From NCBI RefSeq assembly GCF_009914755.1, contig NC_060931.1: a stretch of 64,000 nucleotides of DNA; one strand, 5' to 3'. A program made the translations under genes and the position numbers. The stretch is from the human T2T-CHM13v2.0 reference genome, Homo sapiens. Below are positions 35,561 to 53,996 of this stretch, piece after piece; position 1 is the stretch's first letter, and the number at the start of each line of letters is the position of its first letter. The notes beneath the pieces are model-generated. The model was not told the DNA's origin and ran no database searches. It saw nothing but the letters and a program-made list of their open reading frames with translations.

Positions 35561-35950
<390 letters not shown>

Positions 35951-36038
35951 TGAGCCCTTCCTTCCTCCCTCCATCCGCGCTCCCGTGCGCTCAGACCCAC
36001 CGGTGAGTGAGGCCGTCCTGCACTGGACACAGCAGGAC

Positions 36039-36216: not shown

Positions 36217-36909
36217 AGCCCACACAACACGCGGTAGGGAGAGCCTTTCATATCCCCCTTTACAGATGAGAAACTGAGGCTCTGTGAGCGGCGATTTGCC
36301 CAGGTTCCCACGCTCCTAATCATCCCTCTGTCACCGAGGGAGAGGGCGCCTGCCCTCAGGGCACCTTAATCCAGATGGGCCCCTCCTGCACCCCCACAGT
36401 TCAGGCAGATGGGAGGCACAGAAGCTGCTGTGCGGTCGGTAATAGAGGAAAAGGAAAGAGGGAAGGAGGCAGGGAGGGAAGGGGGAGTATTAAGTGCTGC
36501 GAATCTTAACACAGAGACTCACAGAGCACAGGCTTCTCTGGGAGACCAAAGCAGGCTTCCTAAGGAGGGGGAAGCGATGTTTGTGATGAGGGGGCCTGGG
36601 AGGCCCCACGGTCGCCTGTCTCCAGAGGGGCCGCCCCAGCCCAGCAGAAAGTGAACCCCTTGTGAGGGTCAGCTTGGCCCTGCTGCTGGGAAAGTGGGGG
36701 GTCCGTGTTCAGTGCCCTCCAAGGGCAGTAAACGGGCCTGGCCCAGGTCCAGAGGGGCCCCGTGGATTGAAGGACCTTGCCCTGGTGCAGTGGAGGGAGG
36801 AGGCGCCACCCTCAGCCCCCAGAGCCTCCCTGCCTGCCCTGCACGGCCCTGACACGTCCCAGCCTGGGGTGCGGCCCCAGGGCCGGCAGCATTGGGGTTG
36901 CCCTGGGCT

Positions 36910-37005
36910 AGTTGGAATGCAGAGTCCTGGGCTCCACCCAGACCTGGGACAGAATCTGCATTTTAACAAGATCCCTAGTGACGCGGGCGTACATTGGAGT
37001 TTAAA
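36910..37005. mobile_element. MER5-like DNA transposon fragment
   Basis: aatgcagagtcctgggctccacccagacc...agaatctgcattttaacaagatccc. Confidence 0.6.
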
Positions 37006-37613
37006 GGGCTTTTTTAAAGATCAAAGTCTTCTGTGGTGACTATAGAAATCGCCAGAAGCCAGATTTTCCACCATTTCAGCTATCTAGAACAGCCTGAACC
37101 CAAAAAGGGCTTTTTATGAAAAGAAAGACGGGGAGGGTCATTAGGAAACAGCCCCCCTCGGGTCCACCTGTTTATAAAACAGGACACAGAGCCCAGCACC
37201 CAGGCGAGCCGTCTGACAGGTGGAGGGGGAGGGTGCTCCACGCAGAGGCGTGGTCGGGCCTTGGGTCCCGGGTCGGCCCTGGCAGACGGCCCACGTCCCT
37301 CCACACCTGGTCACCTCGCCTCACAGGACAATCACCACGTCCTCCGTCAGCAAGAAAAGCTCTCGCCCTGCATTCTCCATTTAATTAAGCGAGTGGGAGC
37401 CTGTGGTGTGGTTCAGAAGGAGTTCCATTAAAAGTGGCTCCTTTAATTTAATTTTGTTTTAAATTTAGCCCTGGAATGAGGGCAGGCTTTAGCTATGCAG
37501 GCAGTTGGTGCTGTGTGCCCATCAGTGAGGCATCGCCAGCCCCAGTCCCTCAGGGGCCTCTCCCACCCCCATCACCGTGGGGCCAGGCAGAGCCACCGGA
37601 CCTAGGGCTGGGT

Positions 37614-37750
37614 TTATTCGGAGGCAGGGACACAGAGGCCCGCTGAGCCGCACAGAGCACAGACCCTCCCCTGCCCCGTTCTTATTTGGAGGCAGGGACA
37701 CAGAGGCCCGCTGAGCCGCACAGAGCACAGACCATTCCCCGCCCGTTTCT
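37614..37750. repeat. 68-bp tandem duplication abutting the exon 5 acceptor
   Basis: gaggcagggacacagaggcccgctgagccgcacagagcacagacc at 37621 and 37689. Confidence 0.9.
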
Positions 37751-37756
37751 TGCCAG

Positions 37757-37872
37757 GATCCTGGACTTCCGCCGGGTCCCTCCCGTGGCCGGCAGGATGG
37801 TCAACATGACCAAGGAGATCCGGGACGTCACACGGGACAAGAAGCTCTGGAGGACCTTCTTCATCTCTCCAG
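37757..37872 (+). CDS. FAM20C: FAM20C coding exon 5 (116 bp): [38 protein letters not shown]
   Basis: Acceptor tttcttgccag|G. The first donor CCAG|gtagcc gives the known FFISP-ANN junction with exon 6. Confidence 0.96.
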
Positions 37873-38320
37873 GTAGCCTGGCACGGGGGCCCGCATTCAT
37901 CTCTCCAGGTAGCCTGGCACGGGGGCCCGCATTCATCTCTCCAGGTAGCCTGGCACGGGGAGCCCACATTCATCTCGCCAGGTAGCCTGGCACGGGGGCC
38001 CACATTCACCTCTCCAGGTAGCCTGGCACGGGGGGCCGCATTCATCTCTTCAGGTAGCCTGGCACGGGGAGCCCACATTCATCTCGCCAGGTAGCCTGGC
38101 ACGGGGGCCCACATTCACCTCTCCAGGTAGCCTGGCACGGGGGCCCGCATTCATCTCTCCAGGTAGCCTGGCATGGGGAGCCCACATTCACCTCCCCAGG
38201 TAGCCTGGCACGGGGAGACCACATTCATCTCGCCAGGTAGCCTGGCACAGGGGCCCGCATTCATCTCTCCACGTAGCCTGGCACGGGGGCCCGCATTCAT
38301 CTCTCCAGGTAGCCTGGCAC
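37860..38320 (+). repeat. 36/37-bp minisatellite made of the exon 5 3' end plus splice donor, 13 copies
   Basis: ttcatctctccag|gtagcctggcacgggggcccgca; GT at 37873, 37909, 37945, 37982, 38018, 38054, 38091, 38127, 38163, 38200, 38237, 38273 and 38309. Confidence 0.97.
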
Positions 38321-38887
38321 GTGCCCTGTGCCCCCTTCCACACCAGGGTGCTGACTCACAGTGCTGTTCCCAACCCACCTCCCACGCAGGGGTGCCCTGT
38401 GCCTCCTTCCACACCCGGAGTGCCAGCCCACGGACAGCTTCAAGGTGCCACCATCAGGGTTTAACCAATGTCCTTCTGTGCACAGAGAGACTGTTTCTTC
38501 CATTTCTTTGTTTATTTTAACTGGTGAAACGATTCACTTTTGGGAGGTCCTAGCCTCTCCAGGAAGCCTTCTCCAGGTGGCCCAGCCAGCAAACATCCAT
38601 GGGACCTCCCCACCCGGACTTAAACACACTCAGCAGGACCCCCGTTGTATAGTAACAGGGTGGGCGGCCTCCCCCGCCTCGGCGAAGTGGCTGGACTGTG
38701 AGCAGGGCTGGCCCAGGCCCCTGGTCCCTGGTGCCCTTGAGGGGATACAGGATGGCCTGAACGTTAGGCAGGAATAGATGTCTTTGTTGGTGCTGAGGTT
38801 TATAAAACCTTCAAGACTCTACGTGATAAGTACAGCGCACACATAAACACATGATTTTCTACTTAATTATCTACCCAGGTTGCTTTA

Positions 38888-39352
<465 letters not shown>

Positions 39353-40585
39353 CTATGTTTCCATCTTGAAGGTCAAGAGTGGTCCCAGCGATGGTGGGCC
39401 CTGCAGAATGAAGGGACCCTCACCCCAGGAAACCCTGCAGAGCAAGGTCCCCACTGGGGAGGGGCCCTCCGGATCGGAGGCTCTCACTGTAGGGGGCCTC
39501 AGCCACTCTCCTGGCCCATCTGTTTAATTCATGCAGATAAAATCCAATTAGGGCCCCTGATTAGCTGCGTCTTCAGATTTGCTGGCACATAAAACCTTGA
39601 CCTAAAAGCTCATTTCCTGCAGATGTTTCAGATCGATGTACGGACTCTGCGCTTTCTCTTAATGCATTCATGAATTTGTCAGAACCCGGCCCCCGAATCC
39701 ATGATTTAATTAAGCTCCGTTCCGTCAGCCAGGGCTCACCGAGATCCTCATTTGCTTTCTTCCTCTCAAAGCCCATTAATAAGAGAAAAATAGGACAGAA
39801 AGCTCCACAGAGGCGGGAAGAAGGGCTCCCTTCCCTGGCCCACTGGTGCCTGGCCCTACACACCAGGAATCGGGGCAGAGGCAGAACCTGAGCGTGGGGG
39901 TCTTTGAGGGCTCCCCGGTCAGCTGTGCCTGAGCCAGGCACACCTCCAGTGATGGGGAACGCATTGGCTCACAGACAATTCAGTCCCTGTTTGGATGGCT
40001 TGAGCTGTCCATCTTTTTTAAGGGGCTGAAACTCGCCTCCCCACCCTGGGAGTCCAGGGCTTCCTAAGCACGCCTGAGCTCCGGCCGCTGTCAGCCCTTG
40101 GGTCGACCCTGACCGCACTGTCCAGCCACCGCCTCCTGCCCCACCGTCCACAGGACTGACCGCACTGCAGCCCGCCATGCACACCCTGGTGCCCACGGAG
40201 GCTGGGCTCCGCTCCAGTGATGCCTGGATGCCCGACTGCTTCTTATCCACGTCTTTTTACAATTTTTATTGCAACTTTTAGGGTGATGTATTTCAAAGGT
40301 TCCAAAGACTGACATTCCCCATCCTCAGGTGCCAGCGCCCCATGCAGTGACTGTGGGAATTCCTCCAGCTTAAACTCCATTCTCTGCATTGCAGACCAAG
40401 CTCTCGGTTCAGGACCGATTGAAAGAGACGGTCACAGGGTCACGCAGGGAGGGGTCAATGATGCCCACTGATGCTGAGAACATGCCCTGCCTGGCTCTGC
40501 TCAGAGCAGCATCTCCGGAACTCCTCATTTTGTTGTAAAATGAGCCTGTGGGGGCAGGTCGTTTCCTCCCCGTTTCTAAGGTCTT

Positions 40586-40981
40586 ACTGAGTGGCCGGGC
40601 ACGGCGGCTCACGCCTGCACTGAGTGGCCGGGCACGGCGGCTCACGGCTGCACTGAGTGGCCGGGCACGGCGGCTCACGCCTGCACTGAGTGGCCGGGCA
40701 CGGTGGCTCACACGCCTGCAATCCCAGTACTGGGAGGACCCCTTGAGCCCAGGAGTTCAAGATCAGCCTGGACAACGTAGCGAGACCCCATCTCTACAAA
40801 AAATGAAAAATTAGCCAGGTCTGGTGGCATGCATCTGTGATTCCAGCAACTCAGGAGGCTGAGGCAGGAGGATGGCTTGAGCCCAGCAGGTCTAGGCTGC
40901 AGTGAGCTATGATCGGGCACCACTGCACTCCAGCCTGGGTGACAGAGTGAGACCCCGTCTCAAAAAAAAAAAAGACTGAGT
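40586..40981 (+). mobile_element. Alu (J-type) whose 5' TSD plus head is tandemly repeated 4 times (33-bp unit)
   Basis: actgagtggccgggcacggcggctcacgcctgc at 40586, 40619, 40652 and 40685; actgagt recurs after the poly(A) at 40975. Confidence 0.92.
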
Positions 40982-41572
40982 TGATTATTAGTCCAAGCAG
41001 GTGAATTAAGTCACCTCTATGTCCCATGTTGGCTGACACTTGGAATCCCCAGGTCCTCAGCAGGCCAGGGACGGTGGTCACCGGAGTGCCCCTGAGCTCT
41101 GTGCTGCAAGGCGGCCATCGACCACCTTTGGTGCCGTTGCTGGAATCCCTTCTCACGTCTCCCTGGAGCCAGCACTTTATTAAGCGCTCCAGCAGCTTCC
41201 CTGGCCACTCCTGGTTCTGGATATTAGTTGCGTTTTCCAGGGCAGCGCAAGTTTCTCCCCTGAAATCCAAGACTTCCTCGGCCACCAGAGGCCCCAACAG
41301 TTCCATGTCCCTGCCTGGACAGACGAGTCCTTGAATCTCCCAGAGCAGCCAGGCCCAGCATTGTCAGGCGCCCCTGAACGCAGCCCCTGGAACCCCACTG
41401 CTGCCACTCCAGCCGCGCTGCCCTGTCAGTCCGATTTCTTCCAGAAGCCTCTGTGAGCATTTGACTTTCTCTCAAGCAGCAGGGGCCCAGGAGCCCGGAT
41501 TCCTCTCCTAGAGAACAAAATCTGTTCAGATTCGTTTGCTCCACTTTGCTTTGCATGTGTCTCCCAACCACA

Positions 41573-42020
41573 GATGCCAGGTGACCTCAGAGGCCCTGCC
41601 GGAGCCAAGGGCACATCAGAGGGCTGAGCCCACTGTAGACACCCCCTCGGCCTCCCGACCAAGGATGCCAGGTCATCTCGGAGGCCCTGCCGGAGCCGAG
41701 GGCACATCAGAGGGCTGAGCCCACTGTAGACACCCCCTCGGCCTCCCGACCAAGGATGCCAGGTCATCTCGGAGGCCCTGCCAGAGCCGAGGGCACATCA
41801 GAGGGCTGAGCCCACTGTAGACACCCCCTCGGCCTTCCGACCAAGGATGCCAGGTCATCTCGGAGGCCCTGCTGGAGCCCAGAGCACATTGGAGGGCTGA
41901 GCCCACTGCAGACACCCCCTCGGCCTCCCAACCACGGATGCCAGGTGGTCTCGGAAGCCCTGCTGGAGCCCAGAGCACATTGGAGGGCTGAGCCCACTGC
42001 AGACACCCCCTCGGCCTCCC
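41573..42020. repeat. 91-bp minisatellite, about 5 copies
   Basis: gatgccagg...gagggctgagcccactg(t/c)agacaccccctcggcc; starts at 41573 and 41664. Confidence 0.93.
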
Positions 42021-44029
42021 GTGGCCTGAATGACCCTCCCGTGGGGTCAATCAGAAAAGGGAAAATCCCATCAGCCAGGAACAAGGTGAGGGGGCGAGAG
42101 GTGGCCAAGGCCAGTGCTCGGGGAAGGTGGGCTCTGGGAGGGAGAAGCAGGAGGCTGAGCCCCAGGCAGCCCCCTGCCCCACGTAGGGATTGTGGAGCTC
42201 AGGTTCAGAGAGGGCAATTAGGACCCCAGCACCGCACAGCTGTGTAGGGGCCGGGCCGCAGTCAGAGCCCACATCTTCTAAGCCCCAAACGCTCACAGAA
42301 CACACTCCCCTACTTCTCACGTAAGTTACCGTCTGCACGTTGCAAACGTCCCAGAGGTGCACAGGTCATCCGTGCACAGCTTTGCATTTCTGCAAGGTGA
42401 GCGCCCCCAGGACCAGGCCCAGGTCCTCAGCAGCTCCGGAAGCCACTCAGCCCGACACAGCCTGGACAGAAGGGCTTTGCCATCATCCGCTTCGCCTTTT
42501 TTCCTGCCACGGTGGCCTGGGCTGGGCAGGGCGGTCCTCAGGACTCTCTCCAGTGCTGCGTCCAGCTTAAATGCAGGTTGCAGGAGACACGTTTCCAGCG
42601 ATGGACCCAGTTCGGGCACCCAGAGCCGCTGCCCTAAGTAACAGTGTCCGCCGGGCCCGCAGCTGTCCAGGGCACAGCTGTCCAAGGTGGCAGATGGCAG
42701 ACGTCCGCCTTGCAAAACGCTCCTCCTGCTGGGTCAGCCCCGACACAGTCAGCGAAAGGAATGGTGGGAGACGCTTGAGCCGCAGGGTGAAGGAGCCATC
42801 TTCGTCCTTGCCAGGAGCCACACTCTTGCCTGTCTGCGCTCTCCGGGAGGCCAACCGTGATGCCATTTCCTGGTGACTGGAGGAGGCAGGATCTCTCCTG
42901 GGTTTGTCCGCTACCCTGGCTTTCTCCTTGCTGTTTGTGTCTTTTATTATTACTAAAATGGAAAAGGACTCACGCTCCTTCCTCCCAGAAAGCCCCCACT
43001 CCAAGTGCAGGGCAGCCTTCGTTACCTGGACAGCTGCCTCCCGTGGCTTCCTTGTGTAATTCCCAGCCCGTGATGCCGGCGTTGCTGGGACCCCCGCTTC
43101 CCGGGCGAGGGGCTGGGCACAGAGCAGGGAGGCACTTGCCTGAGGTCACACAGCTCCAAGCCCTCCTAACCCCGCCCGGGAGGCCCCTTTAATACCCGAT
43201 TTGGATCTGCAAAGAGAAATGGCTGTGGGCCCGAGAAATGCCTTTCTCTTTTAACACGATACCATCTGAAACCGGCTTAGGCGAGGACGGGAGGCTGTTA
43301 ACAGCAGACGAATTTTAAGCCTCCAGCCAATGAGCGCTCGGATGAAGATTTTCCTCCTGAAATGGAGCTCCTGCCCCGGTGGGGGCTGCCTCGTCCGACT
43401 GTGGGCTGCCGACTAATCTGTATCAGCACGAGACAGGATTGCAGCTGGTCTTTCCTTGATCGTTCGTTCTTACAATAATGACCCAGCGTTGGCAGTGGGG
43501 TGAGGGGGCGCGGGAAGGAGGGGGCAGGCAGGTGATCGGGGCGTTGGAACCAGACCAGCCGGGACCTGCCGGGTGCGTGGGGTGTGGTGGGGGCCAGGTC
43601 GGCCTGGCACCCACCCCGTTTCCTCTCCGAACCTCAGCTTGTTCAGCTAAGAAAGGGCAGCCGGGACCGGCCACCCTCCTGTTCACTCCGCTGGGAAGCG
43701 CCCTGCCGAACCTGCCTTCTGATCCCACGGGGAGCCTGCCCTGCAGCCAGGAGAGACCCCTGGAATCACTCAGCCTGGCTGCATAGGAATGCTGGGACTG
43801 GGGGAGCTGTGAGTGAGGTTCGGGGCTCCGGCCCCAACAAAACCACGTTCTCACCAGTTCTACAGCCCCAGGCTTTCCAGAGTTTCTCCACAAACAAATA
43901 AAGCAAGAAAAACTAGATTTAATCAGCAAATAAATACAGGAATAGCGCCGTCGGCCGGGCCTCCAGCATCAGAGCAGTGAACCCGCACTGCTAGCGGGCC
44001 TGGACAGCGCTTGCATTTTTCTGATTATT

Positions 44030-44985
44030 CTTTCTTTATTAAGGTATAATTCATGTACCACAAAATTTACCATTTAAAAGCGTACAGTTCCGTGGTTTTT
44101 AGTATATCCACAATGGTGTGCAACCATCACCACTGTCTAAATCCAGAATGTCCTGCTGACCCCAAAAAGGAGCCCCGTACCATGAGCAGGCGGTCACCGT
44201 TCCTCACCCCGCAGCCCTCGACGAGCAGCGTCCCACCCCCAGTCTATCTGGATTTGCCTGTTCTGGGCGTTTCATATTAAGAGGGTCATACGACGTGTGG
44301 CCTCCTCTGTCTGGCCTCCTTCGCGGAGCACAGGGTTCTCGGGTTCAGTGAGGGCTTCATTCCTCTTCTTGTTTCATTTCGTTTCGTGTCATCGCACGGA
44401 TGGACCATGTTCACCTGGCGTGTCCACTCCTCTCTTGATGGACATTTGGGTGGATTCTCTCTTTTTCGGCTGTGGTGAGCGGTGCTGCTGTGAGCATTCG
44501 TGTCTGAGTTTTTGTATAGAAATGTTTTCTCTTCTCTTAGGGGTTTACATGGGAGGGGAGTTCCTGGGTCACGTGGAAACACTGTGTTTAATCAGTTGGG
44601 GGCTGCAGACCGTTTCCGCCGTGGCTGTGCCGTGTGCACCCCCCGCCAGCAGCGCACAGAGGTGGCGGTTCCCCCGTCCCAGCCGGCAGCTGCTCTTTTG
44701 ATGGAAGCCATCCCAGCAGACAGGAGATGGTGCCTCACCGTGGCTTTGATTTGCATCTCCCCGGTGACTCACGATGGCGCCCGTCTCTTCTCATGCTTGT
44801 CGGCCATCAGGGTCGTCTTTGGAGAATCAGCTGTTCAAGCCCTCTGCCCATTTATTAGTTTTTTTTGTCTTTTTGTGATTGAGTGATGAGAGTTCTTCAT
44901 ACACTCTAAATGCTAGATCCTCAGATGTGCGGTTTGCAAACGTTTTCTACCATTCTGTGGATTGTATCTTCACTTTCTTGACAAT
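44030..44985 (-). mobile_element. Old L1 (L1MB-like) 3' end, antisense
   Basis: tttattaaggtataattc...tttaccatttaaaagcgtacagttc..gtggtttttagtatat, gatggacatttggg and gtggctttgatttgcatctccc. Confidence 0.8.
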
Positions 44986-45269
44986 ATGAATGCATTTTTT
45001 AAAAGACTAAATGTTGGCCCTAGGGTTTCCATAGACCAGCCCCTGATTTTCGAGGGTTCAGGCCGGGCTCTGCCTCTGGGGAGCTGTGTGGCCTCGGGAA
45101 GTCAGCTCTGTGGGTTCATTTTTCTGTACCGTGGGGTGGAGGTGTTTGCTGGGATTGATGGGGGAACTGTGGGTGAGTCCTGCCCATGAGAAGCACCAGG
45201 CAGAGCCCGGCCCGGCCTTGGGGGCCGTGAGACCACAGGTGAGGACGCAGCCCTGTGCGGCCCTGGTAA

Positions 45270-45473
<204 letters not shown>

Positions 45474-46530: not shown

Positions 46531-47169
46531 TGAGCCTGTCCTCGCCCCTGCACACCCAGGGAAGGGCCGGCCACCTCCCAGCTACCTGCAGCCCACCTGA
46601 GACCCTGGGGACGGGGGGAGCAGACCCTCCAGTGGAGGGATGGGAATGTCGCAAAGGCCCATCTCAGAGCCAGATGCAGAGGGCGGCCCCAGGCCCCAAC
46701 CAGGAGGGAGGGCCGCCCCGGGAGTGGGACCTCCGAGGCACAGGAATGCTGCAGACCAAGTCCCGGCAGAGCTGGTGTTACCTGGGAAACGGAGGCCAGG
46801 AGAGGCTGCTGGTAGGAAGAGCAGGACCGTGCAGAATAGATGGGCCTCTGCCTGCACGCGGTACCTGGAGCCAGCCAGCGGGGGATAGGCGGCCTCTGCG
46901 GCCGCTGCTGGCCTGCCACGGGGGGTCTTGGGCGGCGCTGTGAGACCCTGGTTACCAGGGAGGGTGACCCCTAATAAGCAAAGCATGGAGGCGAGTAACT
47001 CGGGCAGGAGGACGTCCATTCCCAGGCTCGGAGGCCTCAGAGAGATGGACTTTGGGCACTTCAATAGCTAAACTGTGGGCTGACGCTCCCTGGAGCCATC
47101 TCAACTCGGCTGCCCAGGACCCTTCCCCAGGCCAGAGGCCAGGACCCCACATACAGGGCTGGGGACAGG

Positions 47170-48660
47170 CGGGGTGGACCCACTGCCTGGGGTGCTGGAG
47201 ATGGGCAGGGTGGACCCACTGCCCGGGGTGCTGGAGATGGGCAGGGTGGACCCACTGCCTGGGGTGCTGGAGATGGGCAGGGTGGACCCACTGCCCGGGG
47301 TGCTGGAGATGGGCTGGGTGGACCCACTGCCCGGGGTGCTGGAGATGGGCTGGGTGGACCCACTGCCCGGGGTGCTGGAGATGGGCTGGGTGGACCCACT
47401 GCCCGGGGTGCTGGAGATGGGCTGGGTGGACACACTGCCCGGGGTGCTGGAGATGCCCGGGGTGGACCCACTGCCCAGGATGCTGGAGATGGGCTGGGTG
47501 GACCCACTGCCCGGGGTGCTGGAGATGGGGCTGGGTGGACCCACTGCCCGGGGTGCTGGAGATGGGCTGGGTGGACACACTGCCCGGGGTGCTGGAGATG
47601 CCCGGGGTGGACCCACTGCCCAGGATGCTGGAGATGGGCTGGGTGGACCCACTGCCCGGGGTGCTGGAGATGGGCTGGGTGGACCCACTGCCCGGGGTGC
47701 TGGAGATGGGCTGGGTGCACACACTGCCTGGGGTGCTGGAGATGCCCGGGGTGGACCCACTGCCCAGGATGCTGGAGATGGGCTGGGTGGACACACTGCC
47801 TGGGGTGCTGGAGATGGGCTGGGTGGACCCACTGCCCGGGGTGTTGGAGATAGGCGGGGTGGACCCACTGCCCAGGATGCTGGAGATGGGCTGGGTGGAC
47901 CCACTGACTGGGGTGCTGGAGATGCCCGGGGTGGACCCACTGCCCGGGTGCTGGAGATAGGCAGGGTGGACCCACTGCCTGGGGTGCTGGAGATGGGGCT
48001 GGGTGGACACACTGCCTGGGGTGCTGGAGATGGGCTGGGTGGACCCACTGCCCGGGGTGTTGGAGATAGGCGGGGTGGACCCACTGCCCAGGATGCTGGA
48101 GATGGGCTGGGTGGACCCACTGACTGGGGTGCTGGAGATGCCCGGGGTGGACCCACTGCCCGGGTGCTGGAGATAGGCAGGGTGGACCCACTGCCTGGGG
48201 TGCTGGAGATGGGGCTGGGTGGACCCACTGCCCGGGGTGTTGGAGATAGGCGGGGTGGACCCACTGACTGGGGTGCTGGAGATGGGTGGGGTGGACCCAC
48301 TGCCTGAGGTGCTGGAGATAGGCAGGGTGGACCCACTGACTGGGGTGCTGGAGATGGGTGGGGTGGACCCACTGCCTGAGGTGCTGGAGATAGGCAGGGT
48401 GGACCCACTGACTGGGGTGCTGGAGATGGGCAGGGTGGACCCACTGCCTGAGGTGCTGGAGATGGGCAGGGTGGACCCACTGCCCGGGGTGCTGGAGATG
48501 CCCGGGGTGGACCCACTGCCCGGGTGCTGGAGATAGGCAGTGTGGACCCACTGCCTGGGGTGCTGGAGATGGGTGGGATGGACCCACTGCCCGGGGTGCT
48601 GGAGATGGGCTGGGTGGACCCACTGCCTGGGGTGTCGGGTACAGGCAGGTGGACCCATGG
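47170..48660. repeat. 36-bp G-rich minisatellite in intron 8, about 41 copies
   Basis: ggtggacccactgcccggggtgctggagatgggctg with 35/37-bp variants. Confidence 0.97.
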
Positions 48661-48734: not shown

Positions 48735-48794
48735 GTTTGGGAAGTATTCGCACGACGAGCTCTCCATCCTGGTGCCGCTACAGCAGTGCTGCAG
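48735..48794 (+). CDS. FAM20C: FAM20C coding exon 9 (60 bp): FGKYSHDELSILVPLQQCC(R)
   Basis: Acceptor ttttcttctggaag|G and donor TGCAG|gtacag; phase 2-2, frame continuous. Confidence 0.96.
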
Positions 48795-52115: not shown

Positions 52116-53135
52116 GCAGCCTCCAGGAGGGGCTTCAAGGGGCCCCATGAAGGACGGGAGGCAGTGATGCCAGGAGCAGGGCCGGAGGCGCAGGTGGAGA
52201 AATGCAGCGGCCGTGCCCACCCTGCCGCGTGGGGCTGGCCCAACAGTGCCAATGTCGAGACCCACAGCCATGATAGAATTAAGTTAGTGTTTAAACAGAC
52301 ATGCCCCGGAGTCTGGACTGATAGAGGGGAGTGCTCTGTGCAGAAGCAGCTGTCGCCATCATCCGGCCACCACCGCCAGGGTAGCAACCACAGGGGAGGA
52401 AAAGTGTGCAGATTCCAGGGCCTGGGAGAGACCAGCAGGACCTGCTGCAGGGCTGGAAGTGTGGAGAAGAGAAGGAGAAAGTGTGACCTCCAGGATCTGA
52501 CTTCAGCCACGGCATGGGGCACCCTTCACTGTGGGGTGTTGAAGGAAGACCCAGAGGGGCAGGGAGGAGGCGTGTGGTGTCCCTGCAGGCACCAGATGAC
52601 AGCGGGGCTGGGTATAAAACATGGTGCTGCCAGCAAGGAGCTGGAACGTGGAGCCACAGCGAAGGGAGGAGGGTGCGCACGAGGCCTATGACAGCTCATG
52701 CACGGCTGGAGTCTGGGTAAGTGGAGGGGCAGCAAGGGTGGGGCTGATGGTCCAGACAGAGCAGACGACCCTTGCTGTCCACTATGGAAGGACACACAAG
52801 AACCATCATGCGTGTGAGAGCCTTTGGCATGAGAGACACAAAGCCACAGGGAAACACATGGTGTGGAGACTGTGCTGAGAGCAGAGATGCAGAGATGCAG
52901 AGACAGCAGAGATGCAGAGACAGCAGAGAGTGGACGAACGAGGAGGGTGTGGGGTGGCTGGGGATGGTGTGAGGTCCAGGGAACAGGAGGGGCTCTTGTG
53001 CACCAGCGTGGGTGGAGAAATCAAACAGGATGAAGGCTCGACAGAAAGAACAGGACACGAGACTGAGGAAGCTCCGAGAGAGCAGCGAGGGAGACCAGTG
53101 GCTGGAAAATGAGAAAACAAAGCCACTGAGGCCCC

Positions 53136-53930
53136 AGCAGCAGCCCCAGTGCCAACCAGCAGGGGGCACAGGACAGAGAAGAGGAAGCGGCAGCAGCCCC
53201 AGCGCCGACCAGCAGGGGGCACAGGACAGAGAAGAGGAAGCGGCAGCAGCCCCAGCGCCGACCAGCAGGGGGCACAGGACAGAGAAGAGGAAGCGGCTGC
53301 AGCTCCAGTGCCAACCAGCAGGGGGCACAGGACAGAGAAGAGGAAGCGGCAGCAGCCCCAGCGCCGACCAGCAGGGGGCACAGGACAGAGAAGAGGAAGC
53401 GGCAGCAGCCCCAGCGCCGACCAGCAGGGGGCACAGGACAGAGAAGAGGAAGCGGCAGCAGCCCCAGCGCCGACCAGCAGCGGGCACAGGACAGAGAAGA
53501 GGAAGCGGCAGCAGCCCCAGCGCCGACCAGCAGGGGGCACAGGACAGAGAAGAGGAAGCGGCAGCAGCCCCAGCGCCGACCAGCAGGGGGCACAGGACAG
53601 AGAAGAGGAAGCGGCAGCAGCCCCAGCGCCGACCAGCAGGGGGCACAGGACAGAGAAGAGGAAGCGGCTGCAGCTCCAGTGCCAACCAGCAGGGGGCACA
53701 GGACAGAGAAGAGGAAGCGGCAGCAGCCCCAGCGCCGACCAGCAGGGGGCACAGGACAGAGAAGAGGAAGCGGCTGCAGCTCCAGTGCCAACCAGCAGGG
53801 GGCACAGGACAGAGAAGAGGAAGCGGCAGCAGCCCCAGCGCCGACCAGCAGGGGGCACAGGACAGAGAAGAGGAAGCGGCAGCAGCCCCAGCGCCGACCA
53901 GCAGCGGGCACAGGACAGAGAAGAGGAAGT
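53136..53930 (+). repeat. 53-bp minisatellite, 15 copies, each with a CTCF-like core
   Basis: ccagcag(g/c)gggcac at 53156 and every 53 bp to 53898. Confidence 0.97.
53156..53911 (+). promoter_or_regulatory. Predicted tandem array of co-oriented CTCF sites
   Basis: CCAGCAGGGGGCAC matches the CTCF core CCASYAGRKGGCRC in 13 of 15 units. Binding itself is not shown by sequence. Confidence 0.6.
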
Positions 53931-53996
53931 GAGGAAATGGAAGAAGAGGGTTGACCTGAGCTGAAGGACATGAACTTCCACGTGAAATAGCCCCAG

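What the first reader, a model, noticed from the sequence alone, without database searches (positions are those of the whole stretch)
37860..38320. A VNTR made of the exon 5 splice donor: 13 tandem 5' splice sites, the first two extras in frame
Seen: the last 13 exonic bases plus the first 23-24 intronic bases are repeated, giving CAG|GTAGCC at 12 positions (copy 12 is CAC|GT). Donors 2 and 3 (+36, +72) are identical to the real, non-consensus donor and would add one or two [12 protein letters not shown] peptides with no stop. The third unit is 37 bp, so donor 4 frameshifts and later donors include TAG at 37983-37985. Known, from memory: F354/P357 in this FFISP segment contribute to FAM20C homodimer and FAM20A heterodimer contacts. 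Inference: repeat number and the position of the first 37-bp unit could divide transcripts among canonical, insertion-bearing and NMD-targeted forms, a heritable splicing rheostat.
Basis: partly seen in the sequence, partly recalled or inferred. Interest (0 to 1): 0.88.

Follow-up and report, generated by a model that had tools for sequence, protein, structure and literature searches.

The report
Repeated splice donor minisatellite in FAM20C
A 36-base minisatellite begins inside FAM20C exon 5 and copies its splice donor twelve more times into the intron, an arrangement already known from F7, IFI6, CBS and PDGFA, where usually only the first copy is used.

Summary
A 36/37-bp tandem array (37860-38321, 12.7 copies, 91% match) starts 13 bases before the end of FAM20C exon 5. 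It repeats the donor CAG|GTAGCC at 12 positions plus one decayed CAC|GT copy. Donors 2 and 3 would add 12 or 24 residues in frame. Donor 4 shifts the frame, and donors 5-13 carry an in-frame TAG at 37983-37985. The recalled role of F354/P357 in dimer contacts is in print.

The kind is not new. A 2006 paper defines this class (F7 IVS7, IFI6, CBS, LMNB2, PDGFA) and shows for F7 that identical downstream donors work but stay silent, because the most upstream site wins. I found the F7 and PDGFA arrays in this same genome.

All 4 of 4 annotated FAM20C transcripts containing exon 5 use the first donor. A search limited to named-source proteins of 41-131 aa found none carrying the insertion. The "splicing rheostat" is untested here, and F7 and the annotation argue against it, while IFI6 and CBS show it can happen. 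Verdict: a new, or barely mentioned, member of a known kind.

The parts
37757..37872 (+). FAM20C exon 5 (c.957-c.1072), encoding residues up to P357. Its last 13 bases are the start of the repeat.
   Evidence: RefSeq rows; phase computed; 38 of 38 residues match human FAM20C chain 5yh3_C 180-217.
37860..38321 (+). 36/37-bp minisatellite, 12.7 copies, whose first monomer spans the exon 5 / intron 5 junction.
   Evidence: score 755, 91% match; 109-bp higher-order period at 94%; unique in the genome.
37870..37878 (+). Authentic donor CAG|GTAGCC, the only one annotated as used.
   Evidence: In a weight matrix built from 289 chr7 GT donors it scores 5.05 bits, rank 33 of 289 from the bottom, against a median of 8.1.
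37906..37914 (+). Pseudo-donor 2 (+36). Its use would insert 12 residues in frame after P357.
37942..37950 (+). Pseudo-donor 3 (+72). Its use would insert 24 residues in frame.
37945..37981 (+). First 37-bp unit. It puts pseudo-donor 4 (+109, 9-mer at 37979-37987) and every later unit out of frame.
37983..37985 (+). TAG in frame with exon 5. It is a premature stop for any transcript spliced at donors 5-13.
37945..38162 (+). Two 109-bp higher-order blocks (37945-38053 and 38054-38162) that differ at 2 of 109 positions, a sign of recent three-unit duplication.
38270..38278 (+). Decayed copy 12, CAC|GTAGCC, with a matrix score of 0.64 bits.
38306..38314 (+). Last pseudo-donor (13). The array ends 13 bases later.
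45292..45472 (+). Exon 6, whose acceptor is the single partner for all 13 donors. It encodes the residues from A358 onward, starting [14 protein letters not shown].
   Evidence: acceptor matrix score 9.15 bits, rank 134 of 304.

Best explanation
This is a subtelomeric minisatellite that arose by tandem duplication of a 36-bp piece straddling the exon 5 / intron 5 junction of FAM20C, and then expanded partly in three-unit (109-bp) blocks. It therefore places 12 near-copies of the weak authentic donor in the first 450 bases of intron 5. I propose these copies behave as 5' pseudo-sites of the F7 IVS7 type. They are probably competent, but in normal transcripts the splicing machinery takes the most upstream site, the one next to the exon body, so nearly all mRNA carries the 37872-45292 junction. 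On this reading the array matters mainly in two ways. It is a reserve of cryptic donors: loss of donor 1 would be expected to shift splicing to donor 2, giving a +12-residue protein altered at the dimer-interface motif, together with exon skipping. It also complicates variant calling at c.1072+1 and nearby. What is shown: the array, its register on the exon, the identity of the donors, the reading-frame outcomes, and the exclusive annotation of donor 1. What is inferred by analogy with F7: the competence of the pseudo-donors, first-site dominance, and the behaviour after donor-1 loss.
For: Exclusive use of donor 1 holds in 4 of 4 annotated transcripts with exon 5. One named-source candidate of 41-131 aa shared words with the read-through peptide and none scored; 138 candidates of unnamed source were left out before scoring. 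The class is defined in PMC1557585 (Introduction, one Results section and Discussion read). In F7, five identical pseudo-sites each became active only when every site upstream of it was inactivated, and none competed with the first. [quoted passage not shown] The F7 and PDGFA arrays are present in this same genome. F7 has 6 donor 9-mers at 37-nt spacing, and PDGFA has 3 copies of its exon 4 donor in the 1.7 kb I fetched. All 17 of 17 annotated PDGFA transcripts use the first donor. First-site use holds across donor strengths, with matrix ranks of 33 (FAM20C), 60 (F7) and 252 (PDGFA) out of 289. The unit alignment gives no sign of selection on the pseudo-donors: 9 of 37 columns vary, 1 of them lies in the 9-mer, and the hypergeometric P is 0.28. 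The gene is packed with minisatellites: 34 arrays of score 100 or more cover 22.5% of the window.
Against: I could examine no RNA reads, so 'silent' rests on annotation and analogy. Two members of the class, IFI6 and CBS, do use their first two extra donors. Donor 2 is identical to donor 1 from -13 to +52, and donor 3 from -13 to +16, so no local sequence difference explains a preference. Predicted RNA structure does not explain it either. In the full fold the mean unpaired probability of the 9-mer is 0.19 for donor 1 and 0.12-0.37 for the others. In nascent-transcript folds it is 0.31-0.33 for donor 1 and 0.26-0.32 for donor 2. The authentic donor is weak, at about the 11th percentile of my sample, which could loosen exclusivity. 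[quoted passage not shown] I could not open the source it cites.
Confidence: 0.62

Rival explanations
1. IFI6/CBS-type behaviour. Donors 2 and 3 are used constitutively at a low level, giving minor +12 and +24-residue FAM20C isoforms that current annotation misses. They would be splicing noise or minor isoforms, without allele-dependent regulation.
For: [quoted passage not shown] Donors 2 and 3 are identical to donor 1 over at least -13..+16, they are in frame and they escape nonsense-mediated decay. The authentic donor is weak.
Against: 0 of 4 annotated transcripts use them. No named-source protein of 41-131 aa carries the insertion (a weak test). F7, with almost the same unit length (37 bp) and a similarly weak donor (rank 60 of 289), shows none.
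Confidence: 0.22
2. Repeat number and the position of the first 37-bp unit heritably divide transcripts among canonical, insertion-bearing and decay-targeted forms, with an effect on kinase dimerisation or dosage.
For: The frame outcomes are as described. The insertion would fall directly after the F-x-S-P dimer motif, whose mutation gives a largely monomeric, low-activity kinase. The reference list seen holds a title linking the CBS 31-bp array to reduced enzyme activity.
Against: The same evidence as against the minor-isoform rival applies. In addition, there are no data here on polymorphism of this array, and in F7 the pseudo-sites did not compete with the authentic site. The paper searches found no FAM20C splicing QTL or isoform report in main texts.
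Confidence: 0.08
3. The array is a working cis element for exon 5. Its downstream donor copies bind U1, its one G-run per unit acts as an intronic enhancer, or its composite acceptor|donor motifs support stepwise (recursive-like) removal. Any of these would strengthen recognition of the weak first donor.
For: Each unit junction also scores as an above-median acceptor: 10.46 bits, rank 187 of 304 real acceptors, and only 44 of 4992 AG sites in the window score as high. So 3' and 5' splice signals lie side by side 12 times. Every unit carries a run of four to six G about 13 nt past the donor. The role of G-runs and of U1 bound downstream is recalled knowledge; only titles on G triplets were seen.
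Against: In F7 the authors report excluding intronic auxiliary elements. The F7 unit has no AG at the junction, so the composite motif is not a feature of the class. The unit alignment shows no sign of constraint. Intron 5 is only 7.4 kb; recursive splicing is, from recall, a feature of very long introns.
Confidence: 0.07
4. Assembly artefact or chance similarity.
For: None found.
Against: Score 755 with 12.7 copies. 0 of 100 shuffles reach the observed count. The locus is single in a telomere-to-telomere assembly.
Confidence: 0.01

Closest known systems
F7 intron 7 37-bp minisatellite (PMC1557585)
   Same: The first monomer spans the exon-intron junction. Unit length is nearly the same (37 against 36/37 bp). 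The authentic donor is weak and off-consensus (matrix rank 60 against 33 of 289). Identical pseudo-donors follow at unit spacing, and only the first is annotated or used. In this genome F7 has 6 copies.
   Different: FAM20C has about twice as many copies here (13 against 6). According to the paper the exonic share of the F7 monomer is 4 bp, against 13 bp here. The first two FAM20C extras are in frame, while the paper says the F7 sites that avoid a premature stop are the fifth and sixth. The FAM20C junction also looks like an acceptor, and the F7 junction (TGG|GT) does not. FAM20C has no minigene data.
IFI6 (6-16) minisatellite that supplies multiple splice donors (described in PMC1557585; original paper not held)
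   Same: A minisatellite reiterates the donor, and the first two extra donors are used and give longer products.
   Different: It has 25 pseudo-sites. Use of the extras is established for IFI6 but not for FAM20C (0 of 4 transcripts).
CBS intron 13 31-bp VNTR (described in PMC1557585; titles seen)
   Same: The array lies on the exon/intron border. Two pseudo-sites are used. A listed title links the array to enzyme activity, which is a precedent for a heritable effect.
   Different: 15-20 monomers of 31 bp, not a multiple of three. I saw no primary data.
PDGFA intron 4 and LMNB2 reiterated exon/intron junctions (PMC1557585)
   Same: Only the authentic donor is used. PDGFA lies about 250 kb from FAM20C in the same subtelomeric band, and I saw its reiterated donor in this genome.
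   Different: The monomers are longer: 81-100 bp in the paper, and periods of 97 and 118 in the 1.7 kb I fetched. The PDGFA donor is strong (rank 252 of 289).
FAM20C c.952_956+30dup at the exon 4 donor (review PMC8348777, passages and table rows)
   Same: It is in the same gene, one exon upstream: a 35-bp tandem duplication across an exon-intron junction, listed as a common polymorphism that is predicted to add a second downstream donor.
   Different: It has two copies at most, the extra donor is out of frame, and this reference carries a single copy.

Membership tests
Minisatellite whose first monomer spans an exon-intron boundary and reiterates the 5' splice site (class set out in PMC1557585: F7, IFI6, CBS, LMNB2, PDGFA) | Head-to-tail array of minisatellite-sized units | tested here: met
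   Period 36, 12.7 copies, 91% matches, score 755.
Minisatellite whose first monomer spans an exon-intron boundary and reiterates the 5' splice site (class set out in PMC1557585: F7, IFI6, CBS, LMNB2, PDGFA) | The first monomer contains the annotated exon-intron junction | tested here: met
   The array starts at 37860 and exon 5 ends at 37872, giving 13 exonic plus 23 intronic bases.
Minisatellite whose first monomer spans an exon-intron boundary and reiterates the 5' splice site (class set out in PMC1557585: F7, IFI6, CBS, LMNB2, PDGFA) | The exact donor sequence recurs in the following intron | tested here: met
   11 of 12 downstream copies keep the 9-mer CAG|GTAGCC. The window holds 13 matches against 0.72 expected.
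Minisatellite whose first monomer spans an exon-intron boundary and reiterates the 5' splice site (class set out in PMC1557585: F7, IFI6, CBS, LMNB2, PDGFA) | Copy number varies among people | not testable with these tools
   Reads, assemblies and pangenomes are off. PMC5941971 lists FAM20C among genes rich in polymorphic repeats but gives no locus in its main text, and supplements are closed.
F7 / LMNB2 / PDGFA subtype: pseudo-sites silent, only the most upstream donor used | Transcripts carry only the first junction | tested here: inconclusive
   4 of 4 annotated transcripts with exon 5 use 37872. No read-level data were available.
F7 / LMNB2 / PDGFA subtype: pseudo-sites silent, only the most upstream donor used | Pseudo-sites become active in order when upstream sites are inactivated | not testable with these tools
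   This needs minigenes. The review table lists no variant at the exon 5 donor.
IFI6 / CBS subtype: first two pseudo-sites used | Products longer by one or two units exist | tested here: not met
   0 of 4 annotated transcripts. A word search with residues 31-75 of the read-through peptide found none among named-source proteins of 41-131 aa. Both tests are weak, because longer proteins and RNA were not examined.
Recursive splice site motif (acceptor directly followed by donor) | Acceptor-like and donor-like signals juxtaposed at one AG|GT | tested here: met
   The unit junction scores 10.46 bits as an acceptor (rank 187 of 304) and 5.05 bits as a donor (rank 33 of 289). These are simple weight matrices from my own chr7 sample.
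Recursive splice site motif (acceptor directly followed by donor) | Used as a splicing intermediate in a long intron | not testable with these tools
   There are no lariat or nascent-RNA data, and intron 5 is only 7.4 kb.

The most novel reading that the evidence does not exclude
Alleles that differ in unit number or in where the first 37-bp unit sits send different fractions of FAM20C pre-mRNA to +12/+24-residue proteins and to decay-targeted forms. The insertion falls directly after the F-x-S-P dimer motif, so it could weaken or poison dimer-dependent activation. That would make secretory-pathway kinase dosage a repeat-encoded heritable trait. A related bolder reading is that the 12 juxtaposed acceptor|donor motifs let the array be removed stepwise while regenerating the donor each time.
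Probability: 0.1. Interest if true: 0.62.

Novelty: new member of a known kind. Interest (0 to 1): 0.33.

Why it matters
FAM20C is the Golgi casein kinase, and its loss causes Raine syndrome. There are three practical points.

First, a variant that destroys the exon 5 donor may not be a simple null. By analogy with F7, splicing could fall back on donor 2 and yield an in-frame +12-residue protein changed at the dimer motif. That affects how such variants should be classified.

Second, units 2 and 3 are exact copies of the junction. Short-read calls at c.1072+1 and neighbouring positions, and junction counts for exon 5-6, therefore need care.

Third, FAM20C offers a second natural test bed for the unresolved question of why the first of several identical donors wins. 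It has more copies than F7, an in-frame read-out for the first two extras, and an acceptor-like junction that F7 lacks.

If the extras were used in an allele-dependent way it would be a clear repeat-to-protein mechanism. The CBS and IFI6 cases mean that even this would extend a known idea rather than found a new one.

Tried and rejected
RNA structure as the reason donor 1 wins. In a fold of 831 nt, all donors are mostly paired, because the 13-mer around each junction is nearly self-complementary and units pair with one another. The mean unpaired probability is 0.19 for donor 1 and 0.12-0.37 for the rest. The array folds better than its shuffles, z = -3.33. In nascent-transcript folds of the last 250 nt, donors 1 and 2 are alike (0.31-0.33 against 0.26-0.32), and only donors 4-8 are clearly lower. 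I rejected this as an explanation, which matches what the F7 authors report for their array.

Selection on the pseudo-donors. Of the 37 alignment columns, 9 vary and 1 of those lies in the 9-mer. The hypergeometric P is 0.28, so nothing can be concluded.

Public protein evidence for the insertion. The word search used residues 31-75 of the 75-residue read-through translation. One named-source candidate shared words and none scored, and 138 candidates of unnamed source were left out. The tool sees only proteins of 41-131 aa for this query, so full-length isoforms were not tested. I found no allowed way to submit a full-length query, because the coding sequence is split over exons.

Known RNA families. 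There were 0 matches at gathering score in 36500-39500. The six-frame ORF list for 37700-38400 gave 9 mechanical ORFs made of repeat translations and nothing more.

Literature on this array. The searches found one sentence only (PMC5941971). The paper it cites is not held, and neither is the original IFI6 paper. Searches looked for the class in general; one search found the F7 paper and one search gave nothing useful. PMC10078293 (passages), PMC11610458, PMC3416761, PMC4526556 and PMC13094348 say nothing about this array. Supplementary tables of repeat catalogues and splicing-repeat studies are closed and may list the locus.

Donor strength. MaxEnt and SpliceAI are not available. Instead I built simple weight matrices from 289 GT donors (290 donors in all) and 304 acceptors of MANE-select transcripts in 20 gene-dense chr7 stretches. 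That sample is GC-rich and small. In it, 0 of 290 donors had their 22-mer reiterated within 150 nt, and 0 of 289 had the hexamer GTAGCC.

Age, primate distribution and human polymorphism of the array could not be examined.

Full report
WHAT IS THERE. Reading 37700-38500 and running Tandem Repeats Finder shows one array at 37860-38321. Its period is 36, with 12.7 copies, 91% matches and score 755. It also scores as a 109-bp higher-order period (36+36+37) at 94%. RefSeq ends FAM20C exon 5 at 37872, so the array begins 13 bases inside the exon. A script finds 13 junction-like sites with spacings of 36, 36, 37, 36, 36, 37, 36, 36, 37, 37, 36, 36. Twelve read CAG|GTAGCC and the twelfth in order reads CAC|GTAGCC. 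The 9-mer occurs 13 times in the window, 12 of them in the array. Shuffles give 0.72 on average and 0 of 100 reach 13. The array has a single match in the whole assembly.

CODING CONSEQUENCES. Exon 5 starts in phase 2, so P357 is its last whole codon. This fits the published c.956+5 and c.957-3 labels for the flanks of intron 4. I joined each candidate donor to exons 6-10 inside a script. Donor 2 (+36) inserts [12 protein letters not shown] and donor 3 (+72) inserts it twice, both reaching the normal stop. Donor 4 (+109) shifts the frame to a stop 196 nt past the junction and 237 nt upstream of the last exon junction, so it is a predicted decay target. Donors 5-13 contain the in-frame TAG at 37983-37985. 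The exon 5 peptide matches human FAM20C chain 5yh3_C 180-217 at 38 of 38 residues. Phe354 and Pro357 form the F-x-S-P motif in both the Fam20A-Fam20C and the Fam20C homodimer interfaces. Ser356 and Asn360 make hydrogen bonds there. F354A/P357G is largely monomeric and the least active mutant. An insertion after P357 would therefore sit inside this contact region; its actual effect is inferred, not tested.

THE KIND IS KNOWN. A full-text search led to PMC1557585 (PLoS Genet 2006). I read its abstract, Introduction, first Results section, Discussion and part 1 of 2 of the reference list. [quoted passage not shown] IFI6 has 25 pseudo-sites, and the two most proximal are used as well as the authentic one. 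CBS intron 13 has 15-20 monomers, and two pseudo-sites are used. In LMNB2 and in PDGFA intron 4 only the authentic donor is used. F7 intron 7 has a 37-bp unit in 5-9 copies, and only the first is used. For F7 the authors inactivated sites one after another. Each time, only the next most upstream site was used, with rising exon skipping, and no pseudo-site competed with the first even when strengthened to a consensus value of 91. They report no explanatory RNA structure and no intronic auxiliary element, and the result was the same in three cell types. A later review repeats this account (PMC6627357, passages).

CHECKS AGAINST CLASS MEMBERS IN THE SAME GENOME. A pattern built from the paper's F7 motif and spacing found the F7 array on chromosome 13, with 6 donor 9-mers at 37-nt spacing. 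I fetched 1.7 kb at the PDGFA exon 4 donor, about 250 kb from FAM20C. It shows the donor and its exonic flank repeated, with 3 exact 9-mers at spacings of 171 and 118 nt. All 17 of 17 annotated PDGFA transcripts use the first donor. For strength I built weight matrices from MANE-select splice sites in 20 gene-dense 10-kb stretches of chromosome 7. The FAM20C donor scores 5.05 bits, rank 33 of 289 from the bottom against a median of 8.1. F7 ranks 60 and PDGFA 252. First-site use in this class is therefore not tied to donor strength. In the same sample, 0 of 290 donors had their 22-mer repeated within 150 nt, so the arrangement is rare per donor. In this gene, however, 34 arrays of score 100 or more cover 22.5% of the window. 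A boundary-spanning array is therefore unsurprising here.

IS THE FIRST DONOR REALLY THE ONLY ONE USED? All 4 of 4 RefSeq/Gnomon transcripts that contain exon 5 end it at 37872; the fifth FAM20C model stops earlier. A word search with residues 31-75 of the read-through peptide found no named-source protein, but it sees only proteins of 41-131 aa, and 138 unnamed-source candidates were dropped. Five FAM20C-centred literature searches found no report of such isoforms. One sentence in PMC5941971 credits a 2007 paper with a VNTR that spans an intron-exon junction of FAM20C and affects alternative splicing. That paper is not held, so I cannot say which junction was meant. A review (PMC8348777, passages and table rows) lists c.952_956+30dup, a 35-bp duplication across the exon 4 donor. 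It is called a common polymorphism and is predicted to add a second donor. This reference has one copy there. The review's table lists no variant at the exon 5 donor.

WHY WOULD DONOR 1 WIN? Donor 2 matches donor 1 from -13 to +52, and donor 3 from -13 to +16, so the choice must come from position, not local sequence. Predicted structure gives no answer. The junction 13-mer is nearly self-complementary and units pair with each other. Unpaired probabilities are 0.19 for donor 1 against 0.12-0.37 for the others in the full fold. In nascent folds donors 1 and 2 are about equal. I therefore adopt the F7 explanation, that the site nearest the exon body is taken first. I add, as inference from general knowledge only, that exon 5 has a purine-rich stretch about 30 nt upstream of donor 1 which could favour the nearest donor.

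A FEATURE THAT F7 LACKS. Each unit junction also scores as an above-median acceptor: 10.46 bits, rank 187 of 304, with only 44 of 4992 AG sites in the window as high. The array is thus 12 juxtaposed acceptor|donor motifs. F7's junction has no AG. I cannot tell whether this has any consequence.

EVOLUTION OF THE ARRAY. Aligned units vary at 9 of 37 columns, which is 23 of 444 cells. Three of the eight substitution columns are changes at CpG sites, and the commonest variant (six units) is one of them. Two 109-bp blocks differ at 2 of 109 positions, which points to recent block duplication. Only 1 variable column lies in the donor 9-mer, but that is not significant (P = 0.28).

VERDICT. This is a new, or at most passingly mentioned, member of a known kind. 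Interest is modest. It matters for classifying exon 5 donor variants in Raine syndrome, for read mapping at this junction, and as a second natural model for choice among identical donors.

Noticed in passing
window 37614-37751: A 68-bp unit is present twice (91% match). It ends 6 bases before the exon 5 acceptor, so the region that should hold the branch point and pyrimidine tract is duplicated. The first copy has no AG at its end.
   Followed up: partly
window 35945-35985 (exon 4 donor at 35949): A review lists c.952_956+30dup, a 35-bp tandem duplication across this junction, as a common polymorphism that may add a second donor. This reference has a single copy. FAM20C thus has two neighbouring exon-intron junctions prone to tandem duplication.
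   Followed up: partly
window 41561-42021 and annotated exon 41574-42085: The non-coding exon of two Gnomon XR transcripts lies almost wholly inside a 91-bp x 5.1 tandem array.
   Followed up: no
window 53030-53932 (LOC124906654 coding part) and 53137-53929: The predicted coding region of this Gnomon gene is nearly all a 53-bp x 15 tandem array at 96% match. Since 53 is not a multiple of three, the model looks doubtful (and the supplied annotation).
   Followed up: no
window 47168-48634: Another 36-bp array (40.8 copies, 88% match) with an unrelated unit ends about 100 bases before the exon 9 acceptor at 48735.
   Followed up: no
whole window: 34 tandem arrays of score 100 or more cover 22.5% of the 64 kb, and only the exon 5 donor among 7 coding donors and 8 acceptors lies inside one. 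PMC11610458 reports that FAM20C was incompletely assembled in all 100 nanopore samples with two assemblers.
   Followed up: partly
L022 (chr7:610200-611900, minus strand), PDGFA exon 4 donor: The PDGFA exon 4 donor and about 25 exonic bases are reiterated at 171 and 118 nt, separated by GGGAG-type simple repeats. This is a known class member lying about 250 kb from the FAM20C array.
   Followed up: partly
window 37860-38321: The array is not among the stretches listed as masked repeats for this chromosome. The nearest listed one is chr7:348894-349210, which is window 38894-39210.
   Followed up: no
G000 chr14:99770333-99772046: The F7-derived pattern also hit an unrelated 37-bp tandem array on chromosome 14, and one site on chromosome 17, carrying the same 9-mer at the same spacing. 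I did not examine them.
   Followed up: no
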